Below, piece after piece: positions 1,553-20,631 of a stretch of 46,353 bases of DNA. This DNA comes from a virus (lineage: Duplodnaviria; Heunggongvirae; Uroviricota; Caudoviricetes): IMG/VR virus record IMGVR_UViG_2711768010_000018; one strand, written 5' to 3'. Both the position numbers and the translations under genes were made by a program. The notes under the pieces are model-generated. The model made no database searches. It had not been told where the DNA came from and saw only the letters and a program-made list of their open reading frames with translations. How positions within the stretch are numbered: position 1 is the stretch's first letter; each line of letters opens with the position of its first letter.

Positions 1553-1741
1553 TCACGAGGACTGAAGTTTCTCGCAATTAAAATTTATCAGTTTTACTTT
1601 CTGCTCTCTGGAAACGCCTGCTTCTTTTTTACCTGAGAGCATTTTTTCGCATTCTGATTTCGTTAGTTTAGATTTTGAATATCTTGTCCAGTTAGTAGGA
1701 GTGCCACCTTCCTTTTCAATAGTGGCGGTAATTTTATACAT
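1553..1741 (-). CDS. ydaC: Small hypothetical protein (YdaC-like), start MYKITATIEKEGG...
   Basis: ORF 1553..1813 in track; the ATG at 1741-1739 overlaps the end of the ralR-like frame (ATGTATAA overlap), typical of a coupled phage early operon. Confidence 0.55.
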   Translation of the reverse strand: MYKITATIEKEGGTPTNWTRYSKSKLTKSECEKMLSGKKEAGVSREQKVKLINFNCEKLQSS

Positions 1742-1928
1742 GAACACCTCCATTATTATTTCCAGTGGTTCGTTTATTTCATCGTTCGAGTGCTTCTTTT
1801 TCACTTCCACCATAACCGGTTCGGGATTCGCATCCGTTACACTTCGCTCGGTAATATCCTGAAATGGCTTTCACCGTTACTGATGGACAACCACAAAATG
1901 GACATGGTTTAACATTGTCATATCTCAT
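1734..1928 (-). pseudogene. ralR: Restriction-alleviation protein Lar/RalR homologue interrupted by an in-frame TGA at 1779-1781 (49 codons, stop, then 14 more sense codons to TAA at 1734-1736)
   Basis: Hand translation of the minus strand from ATG 1928: MRYDNVKPCPFCGCPSVTVKAISGYYRAKCNGCESRTGYGGSEKEALER-stop-NKRTTGNNNGGVHV-stop. Cys-rich zinc-ribbon-like N-terminus and position between ydaC and recT match RalR. Confidence 0.55.
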
Positions 1929-1983
1929 AATTTTTCTCATAAAAATATTTCAAGTTGGCGGTGCATTACACCGCCAGGCTGAA

Positions 1984-2793
1984 TTATTCCTCTGAATTAT
2001 CGATTACACTGTATTCCCCGGTTAATACAGAGGAATCTGCAGGATCGATTGTCAGTGGTTCCTTTTCATCCATTGATACTGCACGCTGGATCTCAATTGA
2101 TACGGGCAGATATTTGAACAGGCGACGAATAGCCGTTTTCTTTGCCATTTCTTCCCAGTGAGTTACCCACGGCCCGTTATTACCAGCTTTACTCTGGCTG
2201 CGCACCAGCTCAATCTGTTTGCGCGTCATAACTTCAAACTGAGTACCTCCGTCTTTCAGTCTTGCGACAGCATAGACGTGGGTAACAGGGGCATCTTCGT
2301 TTTCTCCTGGGCGGTGTATTAACTTTTCATCAAGGCCAAATTCGAAATTAAACTCGTCACCTTCACGGACAACACGGGCTGACAGGCTGGCGATTTGACC
2401 TGAACGGCGAGCCAGATCAATCATGCCGCGATAGCCAATGATTAGCTGAACGTTTTTTTTACCGCTCTTTTCGTTTTTATTACCAAAAGGCAGTAAATAT
2501 GCATGACCGAGGGCGCTACCGGGCTCAAGTCCGAGCTGTGAACACTGTACGATTGCACTGACAAAACTCATAGTGTCACAGTTTCCTAACGCCGGAACTT
2601 TACGAATTTCTGTGGTGGCGATACGGATCATACGTTCAGCCGTCATATGGCGTGGAAGAGCTGCTGCCAGTTGCTCTTTCATTGATGGCTGGTTAATAAA
2701 ACTAATCACGTCGTTATTTTTAATTGCTGCTGGTGCACGGTTTCCCTGAGTTTTTTGCAGATCGGCTTTTGCGATTGGTGGTTGCTTAGTCAT
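1984..2793 (-). CDS. recT: RecT single-strand annealing recombinase, 269 aa
   Basis: ORF track 1984..2850; internal Met [13 protein letters not shown]... gives 269 aa matching recalled Rac RecT; overlaps the recE 3' end as in the recET operon. Confidence 0.92.
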
Positions 2794-5386
2794 TTGCATA
2801 TTCCTTAGCCCAGCGGGGCAGTGATAACGTCTTAATAGCTGGCCATTCATCGGTATTGAGGCAGTCAGCCAGGGTTCGCAGATTGCGGTGATATTCCAGC
2901 TGACCTGCCAGTTTTGCTTCTTCGCCCATCATGAAAATTTCAACCGGATAACGTCCGCATTCAATAGTTGTGCTGGCAACCAGAAAAACGAAAGTTGGCT
3001 GCACTCCAAACTGTGCTTCATAACCGTCACTGTAGAATGCATCCTGAACGTGATAGCGGTAGTCGTAATAAGCGGTTTTGAATCGTTGAATATCCGCCGT
3101 AGTTTTCACGTCCATGATCCAGTGAAATTCAGGGATAATTTTGTCCGGACGGCACCGACACAAAATTGCTGTTTCAGGATCTTCCCAGTAAATTGATGAT
3201 TCAGCGTGTCCGGCGCTTTCAACAAGCCATTGCCCCAGCGGCAAAGCCATAACGCTCTGATACATGAGTTCAATTTTCCGGCCTTCTTCGGCAGTGATAA
3301 CCGTTTTTCCTGTGCTTGCGCATTCCCTCAGAAACGCTTTCTCTTCTTCTTTTCCGGAGTTTGTCCGGCGGTTAAATTCAGGTGCTACGATAAAGCGGTT
3401 ACTGAATTCTTCCGGCTCAAGTACCCGGCAGTGGAAAGCGGTTCCTAAATCGAGCGTTTTTGTCTTTGTGGTGTCCACGGGGGCATTTTTACGCCACAAA
3501 TACAGTGCCGGAGTATCAGCAATGTCATCGAGCTGAGACTTACTGACACCGGGACCCGCGTGGTAATTCTCATTCGAAATTCCGTAATAAATACCTGGCT
3601 CTATGTCTTCTACGATTACGGGATCTGCGACTTCGCCAGTTTCATCACTGCAATCGCGATGCGGATCGCTGCCAGCATTCTCATTGTGCGGATGTTCAGC
3701 GCCTTCCATTTCCTCCGGATCATTTTCCTTAGCTTCAACCTGACTCTCTTCATCGAATGTTTCCTGGTATGTTGCGTCGCCCATCACCGCACCACAGTCA
3801 GGGCAGTTATCCCCGCCAGTCTGGCCGCAGGCATTGCAGGCTATTTCCGGTTCCTGTTGCACTACTGGCTCAGGTTGATTCATATCCGGGCTGGTTTTTT
3901 CCGTTTCTGGCTGGTTCTGGTACACACAATCGCGAGTCTGGATCCCCTTTACCCATTTCGGATCGTTCGGGTCGCTAATTCCGTCAACAAATTCACCACG
4001 TGATGCAGCAAGCAATTTATCGGCATCGACAGGATTTTTTGATGGAATGTTTTTCCGGGCTTCATGGAGTTCTGCCCGCAGTTCCTGATATTTCGCATCA
4101 ACAGAATTTACCTGTGACTGAGCATCCAGCGGCTGCGTGTCCTGATGATGTTCAGTTGCGTCCGGTTCCATTGTTTCAGCCTCTCCCTGTTCAACTGCCG
4201 TTGTTCCAGATGGTTGCGGTTTTTCTTCATCATCCTGTTTTCCTTCTTCTGTTACTCGCTGCGGCATCGGGGCAGAGGAGCGACCGCAGGCAATATCCAC
4301 GATTTCCGGATCAGGGTTGGCATGATCGGTTTCAGTCAGTACTTTGTTCAGATATTCAGTGACGTGCGCGGGGATGACCTCGATCCCAATTGGTGCTTCT
4401 TTTACGGACGCAACCACGATGGCGCGGGAATAATCCAGCCCGCCAGGCATGGTGATGAATTTGTCGCGGAAAACAGAAAAGGGCGGTTTATTTTCAGCGA
4501 TAATTTCCTCAATGCGTTTAGCGTGTGCCGGATGAAGGTTATAGATGTCCAGATCCATTGAACGGGCCAGTACGCCAGTGGCTACGTCCCGCGCCAGTGA
4601 CGTCAGATCGTGTACGAAACCTTCGCCGCGATCGGTGAGGTTTCCGCCGCCAGCATTAGCACCGGAAGCCGTGCGAGTGATGTGTGAAACACGATTACCC
4701 TTCATCCACTCTTTTGTCAGCAGTCCTCGATCGGTGTAGTCAGCGTTCAGGTATGCTTCGAAAAAAGCAGTTATCAGTCCCAGGTTTGAATTACCAGGAT
4801 TAGGGAAAACTTTGTCAGTGTCACGAACCAGTTTGTGGAGTTCGCGAATTTCCAGCGGGTCGAGCAGGCTGGTTTTGTGGGAAACAGCCAGGGCAGTAAC
4901 AGCCGGTAGTTCTTCAGCCCGAGCAATGTGTAATGCCTGGAGTCCGTCGCGTGAAACGTGCGTTACCGGTTTTTCGCTGCCGTGTTGAGCAAGCCAACGA
5001 ATGGGCAGTTCCTGGCCAGAAATTGGGAGTAGCATATTCTCCTCAATCTCAGGCATGTCTTCGCCGTTGACGTTGGTATTGCCTTGATAGTGAGCGTTGT
5101 CTGGTGCTGCTCCCGGTTTTAGTTCCCATGTCATGGAGTCTTTGCTGAGTTGATAGCGTTCACTCCAGGTAAAATCGATCTCACCTTCAGCGGGCAGGTC
5201 ATTAACGACAGGAAAATTCGTGGCAACAGCTTTAAAATAGCTGCTCAGTTTTTTACCTGACTTAACGATCAGGTAGTCCAGAGTGGCACAGGTCGATTCA
5301 AAATCGTTGCTTGCCCACAGGACGACGTCAGGTTCACCGGATGATTTTTTCGCTTTCCGTAACAGGAAGAGTGGTTTTGTGCTCAT
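2786..5386 (-). CDS. recE: RecE exonuclease VIII, 866 aa
   Basis: 866 aa ORF with ATG at 5384-5386, immediately upstream of recT on the same strand; length and C-terminal nuclease region consistent with RecE. Confidence 0.92.
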
Positions 5387-11758: not shown

Positions 11759-11915
11759 ACGTTACTAGATCAAAGAGCATTAGTTCATATGTAAATTGAC
11801 ATTTTTCTGGCACAGGGGAGAGCTAGCGTGGTTGTCCGCTTTGTGCCAATAGCGGACATTGCTGGCTCATGGTATGTTAGTTTAAGGAGGCAGGTTATGC
11901 CCTGTATTTCGCTGT

Positions 11916-11924
11916 GGTATAATA
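11916..11924 (+). promoter_or_regulatory. Extended -10 promoter element TGgTATAAT upstream of the cargo operon
   Basis: Exact TGGTATAAT at 11916-11924, about 30 bp upstream of the AAGGGAG RBS (11941-11947) and GTG at 11957; compositional shift to AT-rich DNA begins here. Confidence 0.45.
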
Positions 11925-11956
11925 GTTGCGCAATTGATACAAGGGAGCGTTACATC

Positions 11957-12919
11957 GTGAAAATTGTTTTCGAGGTTAATGGAAAGAAAGTTCCACTAAA
12001 ATCTTTAAAATACATAAGCAAAAAAGATCAACTCGAAGTAATGAAAAACTGGTTCTTTGAAAACTTTGAAGATCCGGCAAATGCTTGTCCGTATGAAAGT
12101 AGAGAAGGTGGCTATGCTTACATATATGGCGGGCCGTATGATGCGAGCGAAGAACTACAATCCATCTTCGGTCAATATGTTAAATCTGAGTATATTGAGG
12201 AATTAGTAGATGAATTACAAACACAATGTTTTGACTGGTCTGGAAACTCAAATAATATAGATGATTGGTACGATGATGATATCTACGACGCTGTAACGTC
12301 TTCCGGTAATCCGTATTTAAAATTCATTGATAATATCGATAAAATAAAAAAACTTGCAAAAGATAAAACTGAACAACAGCAAAAAAACCACTTGCTTAGT
12401 TTGCTCTACACGAATGTTATTACAGCTTTGGAAACGCTTTATGTTGAGCTATTCATTAATTCTATAGAGAAAGATGATGTCTACATAGCCAATTGTATAG
12501 AAAAAGGTAAGACTGAATTTAAAGTAAGCAAAGATATTGCTGCGTTGCCTTTCAAGGGTGAACCCATCGAGAAAATTAGGGGAGAGCTAATCAGGTCAAT
12601 CAAGGAACACTTGATCAGTGCAAGCTGGCATAGCACTAAAAAGGTAATCGACCGCTATGAAGCTACATTCGATATAAAAGTACAAAAAGACTGTCCGATA
12701 GAAGCTATTGAATTGGCAACCCTCAATCGAAATCACTTAGTGCATCGTGGTGGAAAGGATAAAGAAGGGAACCTCGTAGTGATTACAGACCAGGATCTTG
12801 AAACGCTGATTGAAAATGCATCGAACCTGGCAATTATGCTCTACAACAGTTTAAATGTAGCAACGAATAAAACCACCATTTTGCAACCAGATGACAAACC
12901 GTTCATTCATGAATTTTAA
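11957..12919 (+). CDS. Cargo protein A: unknown N-terminal region with a C-terminal HEPN-like Rx4H motif (NRNHLVHRGG); about 320 aa from GTG 11957 (alternative starts ATG 11897 or GTG 11828)
   Basis: AT-rich ORF (track 11828..12919); RBS AAGGGAG 9 nt before the in-frame GTG at 11957; the R-x4-H motif in a helical C-terminal half is typical of HEPN RNase domains. No family recognised with certainty. Confidence 0.6.
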   Translation: MKIVFEVNGKKVPLKSLKYISKKDQLEVMKNWFFENFEDPANACPYESREGGYAYIYGGPYDASEELQSIFGQYVKSEYIEELVDELQTQCFDWSGNSNNIDDWYDDDIYDAVTSSGNPYLKFIDNIDKIKKLAKDKTEQQQKNHLLSLLYTNVITALETLYVELFINSIEKDDVYIANCIEKGKTEFKVSKDIAALPFKGEPIEKIRGELIRSIKEHLISASWHSTKKVIDRYEATFDIKVQKDCPIEAIELATLNRNHLVHRGGKDKEGNLVVITDQDLETLIENASNLAIMLYNSLNVATNKTTILQPDDKPFIHEF

Positions 12920-12934
12920 TAGCGCAGGTCATAC

Positions 12935-13936
12935 ATGGATATTCGCACACGAAAGACAAAATTTTTAGAGTCGTTAGATTCAACTGAAGTGATACGCAAA
13001 GCAGTAAGTCTCGCTATAGATTGCATTATTGATAATCATAATAGTAATGAAGATACCCCCTTAGTTATTACCAGCTATGATGATCTCTGTAGAATCCAGG
13101 TGCTAAATTATGTACAGGAGTTTTGCGAAGCTGCATTCCCTGATATGGATGAATATTACTTTAGTCCTAACATACTTCGCATCAACGGCAAGACTAGTGA
13201 AGAAGCTTGTATTAACTTAATTAAACTCTTAAGAAGTACAAAAGGCATGCTATTCTGGTCCGATGCCCCATCGTGGTTCGCTAGCCTCCCCGACGGATTA
13301 TTCCATGTTGTTAACATTGATCAAAAAATCGTTACTCGCGGCCTTAATAAGAAAAACTCTAAGCCGACAATAATCAATAAAGATTACAGTGTAGATACAC
13401 TACTATCAGAGCTATTTTTGAATGGCGCACACATGGAGCAACCCAACGTACACAACGTTTCTGAGGGAAACATGAAGTTCTATGATGAATGCCATGCTGG
13501 ATTAATCAGACCAATACCCGCTCCAATAGGCGCGTCATACGATGAAGAGATCACAATTAATTCTCCAGATTGGCAAAAGCTCGCGTGTGTAGCTTTACGC
13601 CGCTATCAGTCGAAGGAATGTCATGACGGAATGCAATGGGATACAACCGATCATGGTTGGACTGATGTAATCGCGTATCCATTCGTCGAAGAAATACAAT
13701 CAATGGATAATAGTGGTTATCGACAATGTTTAGTTGGGCTGGTCACAATAAACAATTCAAATGCAAATTCTCCGTACCTATCTACCGTTTGGATACATCC
13801 ATTTTATCGCAGGAGAGGGTTATTAAGTAAGTTATGGCCAAAATTACAAGAGTTATATGGAAGTAACTTCGAAATTGAGCGACCTAATGAAAATATGAAA
13901 GCATTTCTGAAAAGTGCGAAACACGCAGATTACTAA
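12935..13936 (+). CDS. Cargo protein B: 333 aa with a C-terminal GNAT-like acetyltransferase signature (VWIHPFYRRRGLLSKLW)
   Basis: ATG at 12935 is 15 nt after the stop of protein A (same strand, likely operon); AT-rich; the C-terminal 120 aa resemble GNAT motif A (R-x-x-G-x-G/A-like) plus downstream motif; N-terminal 200 aa unrecognised. Confidence 0.65.
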   Translation: MDIRTRKTKFLESLDSTEVIRKAVSLAIDCIIDNHNSNEDTPLVITSYDDLCRIQVLNYVQEFCEAAFPDMDEYYFSPNILRINGKTSEEACINLIKLLRSTKGMLFWSDAPSWFASLPDGLFHVVNIDQKIVTRGLNKKNSKPTIINKDYSVDTLLSELFLNGAHMEQPNVHNVSEGNMKFYDECHAGLIRPIPAPIGASYDEEITINSPDWQKLACVALRRYQSKECHDGMQWDTTDHGWTDVIAYPFVEEIQSMDNSGYRQCLVGLVTINNSNANSPYLSTVWIHPFYRRRGLLSKLWPKLQELYGSNFEIERPNENMKAFLKSAKHADY

Positions 13937-14490
13937 TTTATGAATCAGTCTGTGGAGTTAGGGTTGGTGTGAACAAGTAGGGTAAGAGCCTCAACGTGAT
14001 GCTATGCCGACCTGCTCCCTGAGAATTCACACAGAAGGCTGCTAGCAATGTCTGCAGATCGCTCAAAGCGGACTAAAATGTTGGCTTGTTTCTGACTTAG
14101 AGCATTTAAGGAAGTGCTGGTGGTGACTGGTTGTTGTGTTCCATTTCTACAGAATAAAATCACAGAAACTATACCCAATAGTTGTATTGAATCACTGACG
14201 AGACAGCCTCATATTTATCAGGACTGGTGTGCGTCTAATACAGGGGGTTGTCGTGCTGGTTCTCAAATGTGCGCTGGCTATTGCGGCTGTAATGGCAATT
14301 TATTGTCTTGCTGTTGTTCTTATGGAGCGGCTTTCTGATTGATTACATACTGGCTAGAAAAAAGGTGTTACCTTGGTTTATCTTTGTCCGGCAAGGTGCG
14401 CTCATTAATCTTAAGTAAATTTATTGCTCAAGTATTCAGATTACTTCTTATGGTTGAAGTCTCCTGTCAATGTAGAACCAATATATTTAC

Positions 14491-14526
14491 AAAAATGAGA
14501 CCCGTCGGGGATAGCCCTGCCGGGTC
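14491..14526 (-). terminator. Putative rho-independent terminator downstream of the yeaR-like gene
   Basis: Stem GACCCG (14499-14504) / CGGGTC (14521-14526); on the minus strand the hairpin is followed by TCATTTTT. Confidence 0.4.
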
Positions 14527-14556
14527 TGACTGTTAAAGCATTTTTAATATGATCAT

Positions 14557-14895
14557 CTATTTTTTGGTGCTATAGACTTTTTCGCCCGAAAAGTCTGGAG
14601 CGACCCAAAAGTTAATATTAAACTGAGCATCATCGCTTAGTTCAACACGGTGCCAGTATTGTGGTGGGCTTGTTGCAAAAGCGCCAGCATTAATGACTAC
14701 TTTTATCTCCGGTTCAGTAGCATTCTCATCAGTAAAACCATAATATGTTACAGTGCCTTCCATTACGCACAACTGCCCAAAAACACCTGCTGCTGTATTA
14801 TGATGTGTTAATAACGCTGAAGGTACGTTCTCTTTTGTGAAGAACGGAGTTGAGCGTTTGATTACCCAATCTTTAGGAATTCTCTTGTGTGTCAT
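14557..14895 (-). CDS. YeaR-like DUF1971 protein, 112 aa from MTHKRIPKDW...
   Basis: ORF track 14557..14919; the internal ATG at 14895 is preceded on the minus strand by GGAGGAGG; sequence resembles chromosomal YeaR as I recall it (STPFF..., FNIDFFVAP-like C-terminus). Confidence 0.7.
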   Translation of the reverse strand: MTHKRIPKDWVIKRSTPFFTKENVPSALLTHHNTAAGVFGQLCVMEGTVTYYGFTDENATEPEIKVVINAGAFATSPPQYWHRVELSDDAQFNINFWVAPDFSGEKVYSTKK

Positions 14896-15708
14896 AACCA
14901 CCTCCTCCAAAACATGCATTAAAAATGCATCTTTTGGAGGGTTATGTCAAGCTGTTATGAAACACATAATTGATATGTTGATTAGAGGAGAAGATAGAAT
15001 AAATATGGTTGTTTTTCGTATAACTATTTGTTTTACTTTTAGTTTATGCATTCTGTGTGTTAGGAATAAGTTATTAAAGTTTAATCAAAAAATCTCGATG
15101 TAGTCCACATAGATTACTGTTACTGAACCTTATTGTGTGTATTAGTTGTGTTCTGAAATTTCAGCTTAATTATTTATGATGTATTTTTTAACGATAAATA
15201 TTTTCCCAGGATACCTTTACTGTGTATATAAATAAATTATATACGCATAAATAATGTAAAGGCGTCCTTTTAGATATATCTTATCAAATGTTAATGACTT
15301 GAGTGGGAAATATGATTCCAGCAACTTATCATGTGGCTACTTTATAAAAATAATGCCCATATAAAACAACAAGCGAAAAGGATTACGGATAAAAAAGGAG
15401 CGAGATGTGCGAACTTGTTATTTTCCATGTTTAACCACCTTAAATAATTGATGATGACGGGATGATTGCATCTGTAATGCTTTTATTGAAATGTTATGAT
15501 AAAAAAGAACTTTTGCATAACATTAAAATGTAATTTATCTAATCGTTTTTAATAATAAGTGTCGTATTTCTATCCTTGTACCAGCTATTTGATATGTAGT
15601 GTTTGTTCATGCTATGTGGGGCTTTACACCATAGCCAGTTTATTTATACTTTATTCGTCAGCCTGAACAACTGGCATCTGCTGCGCTGCGCCATCGAGAG
15701 ATTGAGAA

Positions 15709-16308
15709 ATGGCGCATATACAACTGGTCAAACAAACCTCTTCTGGTTTACTTCTCCCGGCGACGCCGGAGAGTTGCGATTTTCTGCATCAAATCAAAAT
15801 AGGTGAGTGGATACACGCAGACTTTAAGCGTGTGCGTAACTACGCATTCCACAAGCGTTTTTTCAAACTCCTGCAACTGGGATTCGATTACTGGACTCCG
15901 GTCGGTGGGGCGATCACGCCTCGCGAACGAGAACTGCTGTCTGGTTTCGTTGATTACCTGTGCGAATCAGTTGGTCGGGAACACACGCCAGCCCTGAGTG
16001 ATGCCGCAGAGCAATACCTTAACACCGTTGCGACTCGTAGAACCCGGGATACGGCGTTGCTAAAGTCGTTTGAGGCTTTCCGCGAGTGGGTAACCATTCA
16101 GGCCGGATTTTACACCGAGCATATTTATCCGGACGGTAGCCGTGGGCGTCGGGCAAAATCCATCGCTTTTGCGAATATGGACGAAGTCGAGTTTCAGCAG
16201 GTTTATAAATCTGTACTGAATGTGCTGTGGAACTGGATTCTGTTCCGTAAATTCTCCTCTCAGGAGGAAGTTGAAAATGTGGCCGCACAACTACTGGAGT
16301 TTGCGTAA
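15709..16308 (+). CDS. Nin-region hypothetical protein, 199 aa
   Basis: ORF with ATG at 15709; translationally coupled to the downstream YbcO-like gene (stop/start overlap at 16308). Confidence 0.6.
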   Translation: MAHIQLVKQTSSGLLLPATPESCDFLHQIKIGEWIHADFKRVRNYAFHKRFFKLLQLGFDYWTPVGGAITPRERELLSGFVDYLCESVGREHTPALSDAAEQYLNTVATRRTRDTALLKSFEAFREWVTIQAGFYTEHIYPDGSRGRRAKSIAFANMDEVEFQQVYKSVLNVLWNWILFRKFSSQEEVENVAAQLLEFA

Positions 16309-19623: not shown

Positions 19624-20170
19624 TGCCTCCATCATTACGAAAAGTCGTTGCTGCTGCTATTGGTGGCGGAGCAATTGCTATAGCATCAGTGTTAATCACT
19701 GGCCCAAGTGGTAACGATGGTCTGGAAGGTGTCAGCTACATACCATACAAAGATATTGTTGGTGTATGGACTGTATGTCACGGGCATACAGGAAAAGACA
19801 TCATGCTCGGTAAAACGTATACCGAAGCAGNNNNNNNNNNNNNNNNNNNNNNNNNNNNNNNNNNNNNNNNNNNNNNNNNNNATGCAAAACACTCTTGAAT
19901 AAAGACCTTGCCACTGTCGCCAGACAAATTAACCCGTACATCAAAGTCGATATACCGGAAACAACGCGCGGCGCTCTTTACTCATTCGTTTACAACGTGG
20001 GTGCTGGCAATTTCAGAACATCGACGCTTCTTCGCAAAATAAACCAGGGCGATATCAAAGGCGCATGTGACCAGCTACGTCGCTGGACATATGCTGGCGG
20101 TAAGCAATGGAAAGGTCTCATGACTCGTCGTGAGATTGAGCGTGAAATCTGTTTGTGGGGTCAGCAATGA
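19623..20170 (+). CDS. SAR endolysin (phage-21 R-type lysozyme), interrupted by a 51-N run at 19831-19881
   Basis: N-terminal SAR segment ([18 protein letters not shown]), then lysozyme-like sequence; the two track ORFs (19623..19898 and 19895..20170) are the two halves of one gene split by the N-run. Confidence 0.8.
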
Positions 20171-20631
20171 ACAGAGTAACCGCGATTATCTCCGCTCTGG
20201 TTATCTGCATCATCGTCTGCCTGTCATGGGCTGTTAATCATTACCGTGATAACGCCATTACCTACAAAGCCCAGCGCGACAAAAATGCCAGAGAACTGAA
20301 GCTGGCGAACGCGGCAATTACTGACATGCAGATGCGTCAGCGTGATGTTGCTGCGCTCGATGCAAAATACACGAAGGAGTTAGCTGATGCGAAAGCTGAA
20401 AATGATGCTCTGCGTGATGATGTTGCCGCTGGTCGTCGTCGGTTGCACATCAAAGCAGTCTGTCAGTCAGTGCGTGAAGCCACCACCGCCTCCGGCGTGG
20501 ATAATGCAGCCTCCCCCCGACTGGCAGACACCGCTGAACGGGATTATTTCACCCTCCGGGAACGACTGGTAATGATGCAGGCCCAACTTGAAGGTGCTCA
20601 GCAATACATAACCGAGCAGTGTTTAAAGTAA
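20167..20631 (+). CDS. rzpR: Rz i-spanin, 154 aa
   Basis: ATG at 20167 overlaps the endolysin stop; N-terminal TM segment, then coiled-coil-like periplasmic region; contains the embedded Rz1 gene. Confidence 0.8.
20387..20572 (+). CDS. rzoR: Rz1 o-spanin lipoprotein embedded in the +1 frame of Rz, 61 aa, proline-rich
   Basis: RBS AAGGAG at 20374-20379, ATG at 20387; lipobox VVGC; PPPPPAW proline-rich mature region. Confidence 0.75.

What the first reader, a model, noticed from the sequence alone, without database searches (positions are those of the whole stretch)
14557..15700. Prophage-borne yeaR-like (DUF1971) gene with a roughly 700 bp AT-rich, ORF-free upstream region
A minus-strand gene resembling chromosomal YeaR, which I recall as nitrate/NO-responsive, lies inside the accessory island. 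It is followed by a terminator and preceded by a long, very AT-rich region with no ORF of 60 aa or more. Such regions often carry complex regulation (H-NS silencing, stress-responsive promoters) or small RNAs. An 11-codon ORF (MIPATYHVATL at about 15311) with an RBS-like motif is also present.
Basis: partly seen in the sequence, partly recalled or inferred. Interest (0 to 1): 0.35.

Follow-up and report, generated by a model that had tools for sequence, protein, structure and literature searches.

The report
Prophage gene behind a nitric-oxide switch
A Rac-type prophage of E. coli carries a small, self-contained cargo gene of the STM1808/YeaR (DUF1971) family, and its promoter is overlapped by a near-perfect binding site for the host's nitric-oxide sensor NsrR, so the gene is most likely switched on only under NO stress; this is a tidy new example of a known kind.

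Summary
The observation mostly holds. The minus-strand gene is real: 14557..14895, 112 aa, Pfam DUF1971 E 2.6e-26. A terminator hairpin follows it, and 813 bp of AT-rich DNA (31% GC) precedes it.

The gene is not an orthologue of E. coli YeaR (41% identity). It belongs to the STM1808-type clade. It is 79% identical to the Salmonella gene next to dsbB and 80% identical to PDB 3dl3.

The main result is a 23-bp palindrome, AAGATGCATTTTTAATGCATGTT, at 14933..14911, 15 nt before the ATG. It scores 28 bits on a matrix built from published NsrR sites. Only ytfE scores higher, and the next best hit in the window is 14 bits. It overlaps the -10 of a TTGACA-17-CATTTT promoter.

The same box-and-promoter layout sits before homologues in all 50 scannable Enterobacteriaceae loci of other genera. 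The best explanation is therefore a phage "moron" repressed by host NsrR and de-repressed by NO.

The rest of the AT-rich region is a mosaic:
- a spacer specific to the moron;
- an unannotated, conserved 28-codon hydrophobic ORF (15428..15342, minus strand);
- a conserved promoter for the DUF1367/Q-like operon.

No Rfam family, NarL, FNR, CRP or Fur site was found. Verdict: new member of a known kind, moderate interest.

The parts
14557..14895 (-). CDS for a 112-aa DUF1971 protein of the STM1808 type (stop codon included).
   Evidence: Pfam PF09313, E 2.6e-26. RefSeq annotates it as WP_000149055. PDB 3dl3 matches at E 3.6e-59, and E. coli YeaR (3bb6) at E 1.6e-24. It is 79% identical to the Salmonella homologue located nhaB-dsbB-[gene] and 41% identical to K-12 YeaR. 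It matches phrog_34268.
14489..14527 (-). Intrinsic-terminator-like hairpin (14527..14498) plus U tract, downstream of the CDS.
   Evidence: Fold. The hairpin is kept in the 23 E. coli-type loci that matched the script's gene anchor, and one allele has a compensatory GGG:CCC -> GAG:CUC change. The consensus scan did not pick it up.
14901..14908 (-). Shine-Dalgarno sequence GGAGGAGG. The GGAGG at 14905..14901 lies 5 nt before the ATG.
   Evidence: Read directly from the sequence. Every homologue has a GGAG-type SD at this position.
14911..14933 (.). Predicted NsrR operator: an 11-1-11 inverted repeat, AAGATGCATTTTTAATGCATGTT when read on the minus strand.
   Evidence: It has 1 mismatch to AANATGCATTTNAAATGCATNTT and is the only hit in the window, where 0.01 is expected by chance. 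It scores 28.1 bits on a matrix built from the sites in Table 4 of PMC5320621; the next best window hit is 14.2 bits and only ytfE scores higher. Boxes of 20-30 bits lie 15-27 nt before the ATG in all 50 scannable Enterobacteriaceae loci of other genera (one only after a 1-nt indel), and in Photobacterium L058 43 nt before it.
14922..14950 (-). Sigma-70-type core promoter: -35 TTGACA (14950..14945), a 17-nt spacer, and -10 CATTTT (14927..14922, which is box positions 7-12). The TSS is inferred near 14915.
   Evidence: Read from the sequence. Across 48 unique promoters from other genera, the match to TTGACA peaks sharply (3.6/6 against a background of about 1.5/6) at exactly this offset from the box (alignment). 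The TSS has not been mapped.
14893..14960 (-). Extended palindrome. If this region were transcribed from upstream, the RNA would fold into a long hairpin that buries the SD and the AUG.
   Evidence: Fold: -30.2 kcal/mol, z -6.8. The 7-bp CCTCCAA/TTGGAGG extension is not well kept in the alleles of strains CE2050 and 1428. Its role is speculative.
14951..15340 (.). AT-rich spacer (27.7% GC) that occurs only together with the DUF1971 gene. No function could be assigned.
   Evidence: It is found in E. coli genomes only next to the DUF1971 gene. It is absent from plasmids and has no homology to the chromosomal loci of other genera. There is no Rfam hit. It tolerates a 57-bp indel.
15312..15347 (+). 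It is judged non-coding.
   Evidence: In strain 1428, 3 of 3 substitutions in it are non-synonymous. It is absent from E. coli W-type loci. It straddles the junction between the moron and the shared segment.
15342..15428 (-). Unannotated candidate small gene: 28 codons, MENNKFAHLAPFLSVILFACCFIWALFL. It has a polar N-terminus followed by a 19-residue hydrophobic stretch, and an RBS AAGGTGG 6 nt before the ATG.
   Evidence: Listed. There are 12 protein variants, and every variant captured is exactly 28 aa with the RBS kept. They come from 58 of 85 scanned loci; some of the other 27 lack the upstream sequence. Two lineages about 79% identical in DNA are included. Mean Kyte-Doolittle hydropathy of residues 10-28 is 2.5-2.7 in all variants, and the ORF stays intact by chance with p of about 0.12. 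There is no family hit and no paper. It is never annotated in phage records.
15623..15650 (+). Conserved sigma-70-like promoter TTTACA-16-TATACT in front of the DUF1367-DUF1364-DUF1133 (Q-like) operon.
   Evidence: The promoter scan gives 10/12 matches. The block 15585..15708 is nearly invariant across prophages whose DNA further upstream is unrelated.
15709..16308 (+). DUF1367 gene, the first gene of the nin/Q-like operon. It is context and marks the right-hand border of the intergenic region.
   Evidence: Pfam PF07105, E 6.4e-98.

Best explanation
The feature is a phage 'moron', a self-contained cargo cassette, inserted between the replication genes and the nin/Q-like genes of a Rac-type lambdoid prophage. 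The cassette consists of a terminator, a 112-aa STM1808-type DUF1971 gene, a strong SD and a sigma-70 promoter. The -10 hexamer and the start site of that promoter lie inside a near-consensus 23-bp NsrR operator.

Proposed mechanism (the DNA elements are shown; their function is inferred):
1. In an unstressed lysogen, the host's iron-sulphur repressor NsrR binds 14911..14933 and blocks RNA polymerase.
2. Nitric oxide, from host immunity or from nitrite reduction during nitrate respiration, damages the NsrR cluster, and the repressor leaves the DNA.
3. Transcription then starts near 14915 and produces a leader of about 20 nt and the DUF1971 protein. It stops at the hairpin 14527..14498.

The protein is a small beta-barrel of the YeaR/TehB-N-terminal family. 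It keeps the two family-wide histidines, His32 (HHNT) and His82 (WHR). By analogy with Salmonella STM1808 it would add tolerance to nitrosative stress. Its biochemical activity is unknown.

The long AT-rich tract is not the control region. It is a spacer specific to the moron (14951..15340) joined to a segment that many lambdoid prophages share upstream of DUF1367.
For: Gene identity.

Prophage and moron context: the cassette shows presence/absence polymorphism at the same slot, where other prophages carry hok/gef or nothing. GC is 41% for the gene and 28% for the spacer, against 47% for the window. The cassette has its own terminator, with a compensatory change in one allele.

Operator:
- The box has 1 mismatch to the 11-1-11 consensus and is unique in the 46-kb window, where 0.01 is expected by chance.
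- It scores 28.1 bits on a matrix built from the sites published in PMC5320621 Table 4. By leave-one-out scoring the known sites give ytfE 30.9, hcp 25.5, yeaR 22.9 and hmp 18.2. Shuffles of the intergenic region reach a maximum averaging 10.7.

Phylogenetic footprint:
- Upstream boxes of at least 20 bits occur in 51 of 79 loci. These are the near-identical Shigella prophage copy, 49 of the 50 scannable Enterobacteriaceae loci of other genera, and one Photobacterium locus. In the Enterobacteriaceae the box lies 15-27 nt before the ATG. The 50th Enterobacteriaceae locus, L012, has the box shifted by a 1-nt indel.
- Only 3 of 79 loci have any site of 15 bits or more in the remaining 5 kb or so.
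- DNA homology to those chromosomal loci stops exactly at the outer edge of the box, 14934. Even so, a -35 hexamer is found at the same 11-nt offset from the box in 48 unique promoters and in the window.

E. coli prophage alleles keep the box at 19.8-28.6 bits.

Literature: NsrR binds 11-1-11 repeats and represses (PMC5320621). A 'tehB homolog' was predicted in the NsrR regulon of enterobacteria and Photobacterium (PMC1274295). STM1808 is listed as an NsrR-regulon gene with a role in virulence (PMC7527575, citing Karlinsey 2012).
Against: - NsrR binding, the TSS and NO induction are all inferred.
- The -10 hexamer CATTTT is weak (3/6), and the consensus promoter scan did not call this promoter.
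- The commonest E. coli prophage allele has a poorer left half-site (AACACG..., 20.7 bits), so the strength of repression may vary between strains.
- CFT073 ChIP-seq missed some sites that are good by sequence, including yeaR and ygbA (PMC5320621). A good motif therefore does not guarantee detectable occupancy.
- Most Vibrionaceae homologues lack the box, so NsrR control is not universal in this clade.
- The protein's function is unknown. Zinc binding and the NO-resistance phenotype of STM1808 are from my memory of Karlinsey et al. 2012, which I could not open.
Confidence: 0.8

Rival explanations
1. The palindrome acts mainly as an RNA element rather than a protein operator. Transcripts entering from the AT-rich region, for example from the 28-codon ORF, would fold into a hairpin that hides the SD and the AUG. 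The gene would then be controlled, or insulated, at the level of translation.
For: The hairpin over 14960..14893 is predicted at -30.2 kcal/mol with z -6.8. It pairs CCUCC with the SD GGAGG, and UCAUAAC with GUUAUGA, which contains the start codon. I saw no convincing terminator between the small ORF and the DUF1971 promoter on the minus strand. Citrobacter loci extend the palindrome by 9-10 bp with paired changes.
Against: The conserved columns are those of the NsrR matrix, not just any complementary pairs. The flanking extension differs between E. coli alleles and between genera. A -35 at a fixed offset predicts a TSS inside the box, and a transcript starting there would lack the left arm of the hairpin. 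The two roles are not mutually exclusive.
Confidence: 0.1
2. The cassette is a silent, decaying relic in a defective prophage. It would be AT-rich foreign DNA coated by H-NS, with no current function, and the box would be a leftover from its donor.
For: The AT content is very high, 28-31% GC. Rac is often defective. The spacer tolerates a 57-bp indel, and strain EC02 has an IS2 inserted just upstream of the -35.
Against: The whole region is present in 450 of 5,426 complete E. coli genomes. The ORF, SD, -35, box and terminator are all retained, and the terminator carries a compensatory change. The protein is 95-100% conserved within E. coli clusters. Three induced, packaged phages carry it. H-NS binding and NsrR control are also compatible with each other.
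Confidence: 0.07
3. The gene is a tellurite-resistance determinant of the TehB type, or a simple duplicate of chromosomal yeaR under nitrate (NarL) control, as its database names suggest.
For: RefSeq names some copies 'TehB family protein'. PDB 3dl3 is titled 'tellurite resistance protein B'. The DUF1971 domain is shared with YeaR and with the N-terminal domain of Haemophilus TehB.
Against: The protein has only 112 aa and no methyltransferase domain. Its NCBIfam TehB score is 49 bits against a cut-off of 303. It is 41% identical to YeaR and has no yoaG downstream. No NarL heptamer or 7-2-7 site occurs upstream.
Confidence: 0.03

Closest known systems
Salmonella enterica STM1808, an NsrR-regulated DUF1971 protein (Karlinsey et al. 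2012, cited in PMC7527575 and PMC7082413)
   Same: The proteins are 79% identical over the full length (against the S. diarizonae orthologue, which sits nhaB-dsbB-[gene]). Both are single-domain proteins of 112-113 aa, and His32 and His82 are invariant. A high-scoring NsrR box lies 15-27 nt before the ATG and overlaps the promoter.
   Different: The Salmonella gene is a fixed chromosomal gene downstream of dsbB. This one is cargo of a lambdoid prophage and is present in only about 8% of complete E. coli genomes. DNA upstream of the box is unrelated. My identification of the Salmonella orthologue as STM1808 rests on gene order and on my memory of LT2 locus numbering.
E. coli K-12 yeaR-yoaG operon (NsrR-repressed, NarL-activated)
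   Same: Both encode a DUF1971 domain. Both have an NsrR 11-1-11 box upstream; the yeaR box is AAATGGTATTTAAAATGCAAATT (PMC5320621 Table 4).
   Different: Identity is only 41%. There is no yoaG partner. The box lies 15 nt before the ATG here, against 66 nt in yeaR. The box scores 28.1 bits here, against 22.9 for yeaR. No NarL site is present.
PDB 3dl3, deposited as 'tellurite resistance protein B' (119 aa; a structural-genomics target)
   Same: E 3.6e-59 and about 80% identity over residues 1-111. A solved structure of a near-identical protein therefore exists.
   Different: It is a chromosomal protein from another genus. My memory says Aliivibrio fischeri, and the closest sequence cluster, P0018, is A. 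fischeri. The A. fischeri loci show no NsrR box upstream (L065, L066). The deposit gives no function.
Phage morons, i.e. lysogenic-conversion cassettes with their own promoter and terminator (a concept known from lambda bor/lom and HK97-type phages; general knowledge)
   Same: The gene is autonomous, with its own promoter and terminator. It sits between phage operons in the opposite orientation, has a deviant GC content, and varies in presence among related prophages.
   Different: Its promoter is wired to a specific host stress sensor, NsrR. In the searchable library I found no report of a prophage-borne NsrR-regulon member in E. coli.

Membership tests
DUF1971 (Pfam PF09313), the YeaR / STM1808 / TehB-N-terminal domain family | A significant full-length match to the family profile. 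| tested here: met
   E 2.6e-26, 91.9 bits against a cut-off of 23.1, profile positions 1-80 of 80. PDB relatives 3dl3, 3bb6 and 3m70 match.
STM1808-type subclade of DUF1971 | Closer to the Salmonella dsbB-adjacent gene than to YeaR, a single domain of about 112 aa, and conserved His32 and His82. | tested here: met
   79% identity against 41%. The HHNT and WHR motifs are invariant in 13 diverse homologues. The role of these histidines in metal binding is from memory and was not tested.
NsrR regulon (E. coli / enterobacterial type) | An 11-1-11 inverted repeat matching the NsrR weight matrix in the promoter region. | tested here: met
   28.1 bits, second only to ytfE among the published sites, and unique in the window.
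NsrR regulon (E. coli / enterobacterial type) | The operator is placed where it can repress, overlapping the -10 or the TSS. | tested here: inconclusive
   The -35 TTGACA lies 17 nt from box positions 7-12, and the same offset is conserved in 48 promoters of other genera. The TSS has not been mapped.
NsrR regulon (E. coli / enterobacterial type) | NsrR binding in vitro or in vivo, and de-repression in an nsrR mutant or by NO. | not testable with these tools
   This needs EMSA or ChIP and reporter or qRT-PCR experiments.
Phage moron | An independent promoter and terminator, a location between phage operons, and variable presence among related phages. | tested here: met
   The same slot holds hok/gef or nothing in other prophages.
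yeaR-yoaG operon orthologue | A yoaG gene downstream, NarL 7-2-7 activation sites, and high identity to YeaR. | tested here: not met
   A terminator follows the gene, not yoaG. There are no NarL heptamers. Identity is 41%.
TehB tellurite-resistance methyltransferase | A SAM-dependent methyltransferase domain, and a score above the NCBIfam cut-off. | tested here: not met
   The protein has only 112 aa. NF008992 scores 49.1 bits against a cut-off of 303, and the match covers the N-terminal domain only.
Type I toxin or small membrane protein (for the 28-codon ORF 15428..15342) | A short hydrophobic peptide with a conserved ORF and RBS. | tested here: inconclusive
   Every variant captured has 28 codons, the RBS is kept and the C-terminal 19 residues stay hydrophobic. 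The chance of the ORF surviving 18 random substitutions is about 0.12, and the substitutions are not clearly biased to third codon positions (2/7/9).
Type I toxin or small membrane protein (for the 28-codon ORF 15428..15342) | A cognate antisense RNA, and toxicity on over-expression. | not testable with these tools
   A weak plus-strand promoter-like site lies at 15326..15354, but there is no Rfam hit. Northern blots and expression tests are needed.

The most novel reading that the evidence does not exclude
The supposedly empty AT-rich tract is not empty. It would carry an unannotated 28-residue membrane peptide gene (15428..15342) that is conserved upstream of the DUF1367/Q-like operon in the E. 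coli lambdoid prophage loci sampled here. This could be a new type I toxin or a small phage membrane effector. In this prophage lineage the NO-responsive moron was inserted exactly at its stop codon, replacing the terminator seen in E. coli W-type prophages. The extended NsrR palindrome would then also serve as an RNA hairpin that keeps read-through transcripts from being translated, so that the DUF1971 protein is made only from the NsrR-gated start site.
Probability: 0.2. Interest if true: 0.55.

Novelty: new member of a known kind. Interest (0 to 1): 0.4.

Why it matters
If the prediction holds, about 8% of completely sequenced E. coli strains have an NsrR regulon that a phage has extended. 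A temperate phage would deliver a ready-wired, NO-inducible stress gene whose Salmonella counterpart is reported to contribute to virulence. This would be a clean example of a horizontally acquired gene arriving with its operator for a host sensor already in place. It gives an easy experimental handle on the still-unknown biochemical role of DUF1971 proteins, namely comparing a lysogen with its cured strain under NO stress.

It also matters for annotation. The regulatory information sits in 55 bp next to the gene, and the 'empty' AT-rich DNA hides a conserved small ORF that gene callers skip.

Tried and rejected
- Rfam at permissive E-value over 14000..16000 gave only sub-threshold miRNA-type hits on the palindrome and no hok/sok or sRNA family.
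- The consensus promoter/terminator scan found neither the minus-strand promoter nor the terminator. Both had to be argued from comparative data.
- Motif scans for NarL heptamers, the NarL 7-2-7 site, FNR, CRP, Fur and IHF over 14899..15340 found nothing above chance.
- The 11-codon ORF is rejected as non-conserved.
- The 88-aa plus-strand ORF 14837..15103 has no Pfam hit and is not annotated.
- The idea that the SD-sequestering extension of the palindrome is a conserved feature is weakened, because the alleles of strains CE2050 and 1428 and most other genera do not keep it.
- The spacer 14951..15340 has no match on plasmids. It has no match in E. coli genomes apart from next to this gene, and none to the chromosomal loci of other genera.
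- PADLOC gave no hit for the neighbouring island proteins.
- The K-12 Qin region was checked for an annotated counterpart of the small ORF. Qin has a different ydfU and no counterpart.
A tblastn search of phages found it in only 4 records, none of them annotated.
- Karlinsey et al. 2012 could not be opened, so the STM1808 phenotype and zinc-site details are from memory.
Full report
**1. Where we are**

The window is a Rac-type lambdoid prophage of E. coli. An identical 1.35-kb stretch lies in many E. coli chromosomes. In strain O78-3 the surrounding genes run ttcA, intR/xisR, recET, kilR, sieB, the repressors, ydaTUV, DUF1627 and DUF977. Then come an accessory island and the DUF1367-DUF1364-DUF1133 (Q-like) genes, followed by lysis and the terminase. 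The whole finding region is present in 450 of 5,426 complete E. coli genomes. It is also present in three sequenced, induced E. coli phages, which are the only 3 of 50,697 phage records that encode this protein.

**2. Checking the observation**

- **The gene.** It is real: Pfam DUF1971, E 2.6e-26, covering the whole profile. The mechanical ORF runs 14557..14919. The start actually used is almost certainly the ATG at 14895..14893, because a GGAGG lies 5 nt upstream. This gives the 112-aa protein that RefSeq annotates and that is stored in exactly this form in the protein collection.
- **The terminator.** Downstream there is a hairpin at 14527..14498 followed by UCAUUUUUG. The simple scanner missed it. 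Strain CE2050 carries a compensatory GGG:CCC to GAG:CUC change in the stem, which argues that the structure matters.
- **The intergenic region.** The region up to the DUF1367 start is 813 bp. It has 31% GC, falling to 27.7% in its core, against 47% for the window.
- **The small ORFs.** The 11-codon ORF is at 15312..15347. The statement that there is no ORF of 60 aa or more is mechanically wrong, since there are 88-aa and 67-aa plus-strand ORFs. Neither is annotated, and the 88-aa one has no family.

**3. What the protein is**

It is not an orthologue of chromosomal YeaR. Identity to K-12 YeaR is 41%, and there is no yoaG gene after it. It belongs to a tight clade, 72-82% identical, that is found in Kluyvera, Leclercia, Citrobacter, Klebsiella, Raoultella, Salmonella, Vibrio, Aliivibrio, Photobacterium and Shewanella.

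It is 79% identical to the Salmonella gene that follows nhaB and dsbB. By gene order I take that gene to be STM1808; the locus numbering is from memory. A solved structure of an 80%-identical protein exists (3dl3). Two histidines, His32 in HHNT and His82 in WHR, are invariant in the clade. Each also aligns with a histidine in YeaR and in the N-terminal domain of Haemophilus TehB.

The protein lacks a methyltransferase domain and falls far below the NCBIfam TehB cut-off, so the label 'TehB family' is misleading. In PHROGs it is a family of unknown function.

**4. The key finding: an NsrR operator on the promoter**

Read on the gene's strand, the upstream DNA is:

TTGACA-taaccctccaa-AAGATGCATTTTTAATGCATGTT-ttggaggaggtggtt-ATG

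The 23-mer at 14933..14911 has one mismatch to the 11-1-11 NsrR consensus. It is the only such site in the 46-kb window, where 0.01 is expected by chance.

I took the published NsrR sites of E. coli CFT073 (PMC5320621, Table 4) and built a palindromic weight matrix from them. The window site scores 28.1 bits and the next best site in the window scores 14.2. By leave-one-out scoring the known sites give ytfE 30.9, hcp 25.5, tehA 24.7, yeaR 22.9 and hmp 18.2. Shuffles of the AT-rich intergenic region reach a maximum averaging 10.7. On sequence alone this is one of the strongest NsrR sites I could score.

**5. Comparative test**

I fetched 80 loci that encode homologues from different species; 79 could be scanned for an upstream box.

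- An upstream box of at least 20 bits, mostly 24-30 bits, occurs in 51 of the 79 loci.
- The 51 comprise the near-identical Shigella prophage copy, 49 of the 50 scannable Enterobacteriaceae loci of other genera, and one Photobacterium locus.
- In the Enterobacteriaceae the box lies 15-27 nt before the ATG. The 50th locus, L012, has the box shifted by a 1-nt indel.
- Only 3 loci have any site of 15 bits or more in the remaining 5 kb or so.
- DNA similarity between the prophage copy and the chromosomal loci runs from the stop codon to position 14934, the outer edge of the box, and then ends.
- Even so, across 48 unique promoters from the other genera, a -35 hexamer appears at one sharply defined offset, 11 nt before the box. 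The mean match to TTGACA there is 3.6/6, against about 1.5/6 elsewhere.
- The window has a perfect TTGACA at exactly that offset. This places the -10 hexamer at box positions 7-12 (CATTTT here; TATTTT, CATATT or TATATT elsewhere). It places the TSS inside the box, near 14915.

An operator overlapping the -10 and the TSS is the classic arrangement for repression by occlusion.

The E. coli prophage alleles keep the box at 19.8-28.6 bits. The commonest allele, AACACGCATTTATAATGCATGTT, has a weaker left half. No NarL, FNR, CRP or Fur sites accompany the box, unlike chromosomal yeaR. In yeaR the box lies 66 nt before the ATG.

**6. Mechanism**

What is shown is a complete cassette of promoter, operator, SD, ORF and terminator, and the conservation of its architecture across genera.

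What is inferred is the following sequence of events. Holo-NsrR, supplied by the host, represses the promoter. NO inactivates NsrR. The gene is then expressed from a leader of about 20 nt. The protein helps the lysogen under nitrosative stress, as reported for STM1808 (PMC7527575 and PMC7082413, citing Karlinsey 2012). An earlier comparative study predicted a 'tehB homolog' in the NsrR regulon of enterobacteria and Photobacterium (PMC1274295), and the real tehB was later found not to respond to NsrR (PMC2884951). The zinc-site details are my recollection, because the paper was not available.

**7. What the AT-rich tract is**

It is a mosaic.

- **(a) 14951..15340.** This spacer occurs only together with the DUF1971 gene. 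It tolerates a 57-bp indel and has no Rfam match. I could assign no function to it. H-NS binding is plausible but cannot be tested here.
- **(b) 15338 or so to 15708.** This DNA is shared at about 75% identity with further E. coli genomes; 706 records fall in the 60-80% identity band. In those genomes the DUF1971 gene is absent, and in the one examined (E. coli W) a hok/gef gene sits to the left.
- **A candidate small gene inside (b).** On the minus strand there is a 28-codon ORF at 15428..15342, MENNKFAHLAPFLSVILFACCFIWALFL, with an AAGGTGG RBS. It was found in 58 of the 85 loci scanned. Twelve protein variants are all exactly 28 residues, keep the RBS and keep a hydrophobic C-terminal 19-mer. 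The statistics are only suggestive, since the ORF would survive the observed divergence by chance with p of about 0.12. It has no family, no literature hit and no annotation. I report it as a candidate small membrane peptide.
- **The junction.** The moron junction lies exactly at the stop codon of this ORF. There it replaces a CCCGC...GCGGG terminator hairpin seen in E. coli W-type prophages.
- **(c) 15585..15708.** This block is nearly invariant, even in prophages whose DNA further upstream is unrelated. It contains a TTTACA-16-TATACT promoter-like site in front of DUF1367.

**8.

It straddles the junction between segments (a) and (b). It is missing from W-type prophages, and all of its substitutions in strain 1428 are non-synonymous. 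It is rejected as coding.

**9. A secondary idea**

In this allele the palindrome is extended (CCTCCAA...TTGGAGG), and UCAUAAC can pair with GUUAUGA. An RNA made from upstream would therefore fold at -30.2 kcal/mol (z -6.8) and bury both the SD and the AUG. This could keep read-through transcripts untranslated. However, the extension is not well conserved among alleles or genera, so I rate the idea low.

**10. Verdict**

The feature is an ordinary but neat phage moron: an STM1808-type DUF1971 gene under a near-consensus NsrR operator. The gene family and its NsrR control are known from chromosomal genes. The new points are its carriage on an E. coli lambdoid prophage with the operator intact, and the candidate small ORF next to it. 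I found no paper describing either.

Novelty: new member of a known kind. Interest: 0.4.

Noticed in passing
window 15342..15428 (-): An unannotated 28-codon ORF with a strong RBS encodes a polar N-terminus followed by a 19-residue hydrophobic stretch. It is conserved, always at 28 codons, in the E. coli lambdoid prophage loci sampled here upstream of DUF1367. It could be a small membrane protein or a type I toxin.
   Followed up: partly
window 15585..15708 (+): This block before DUF1367 is nearly invariant. It holds a TTTACA-16-TATACT promoter-like site (15623..15650), and a 7-bp inverted repeat GCCAGTT/AACTGGC flanks the -10. It stays conserved even where the DNA upstream is unrelated (for example L131).
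   Followed up: partly
L007-L028 (Kluyvera, Leclercia, Silvania, Pseudescherichia), about 15-35 nt upstream of the -35: A Fur-box-like sequence, GATAATGAGATTTATTATC (16/19 matches to GATAATGATAATCATTATC), sits just upstream of the -35 of the chromosomal homologues. This suggests iron control in addition to NsrR control in those genera. It is absent from the prophage copy.
   Followed up: no
L029, L034, L052 and other Citrobacter loci, flanks of the NsrR box: The palindrome is extended by 9-10 bp on each side (ggcatctat...atagatgcc). Paired changes between species (atctat/atagat, atttat/ataaat, acctat/ataggt) hint at a longer operator or a hairpin.
   Followed up: no
L031, L039, L042, L046, L053-L056, L059-L066 and others (Vibrio, Aliivibrio, Shewanella, Agarivorans): Most Vibrionaceae and Shewanella homologues have no NsrR-type box upstream. 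L074, L079 and L085 have a 20-22-bit box elsewhere in the locus. Regulation of this clade therefore differs outside the Enterobacteriaceae.
   Followed up: no
window 14114..14338 (+): An unannotated 74-aa ORF with a very cysteine-rich C-terminus (…GGCRAGSQMCAGYCGCNGNLLSCCCSYGAAF) ends at a terminator-like hairpin (14313..14331). It has no Pfam, PHROG or PADLOC hit.
   Followed up: partly
window 11828..13936 (+): Two island genes of unknown function are annotated 'hypothetical' in RefSeq. One has a weak HEPN/RES N-terminal-domain hit and the other a weak GNAT hit, both below the Pfam cut-offs. Neither has a PADLOC match. They could be an uncharacterised defence or toxin pair.
   Followed up: partly
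L004 (strain EC02) 1655..3000, equivalent to window ~14960: An IS2 element is inserted just upstream of the -35 of the DUF1971 promoter in this strain. The NsrR box there has a degraded half-site (AAGGAGCATTCATAATGCATGTT).
   Followed up: partly
window ~15213: The window allele lacks 57 bp that are present in the alleles of strains CE2050 and 1428, so this part of the spacer is under little constraint.
   Followed up: no
window 19831..20197: A run of 367 N (masked sequence) lies in the window, in the region between the Q-like gene and the lysis genes.
   Followed up: no
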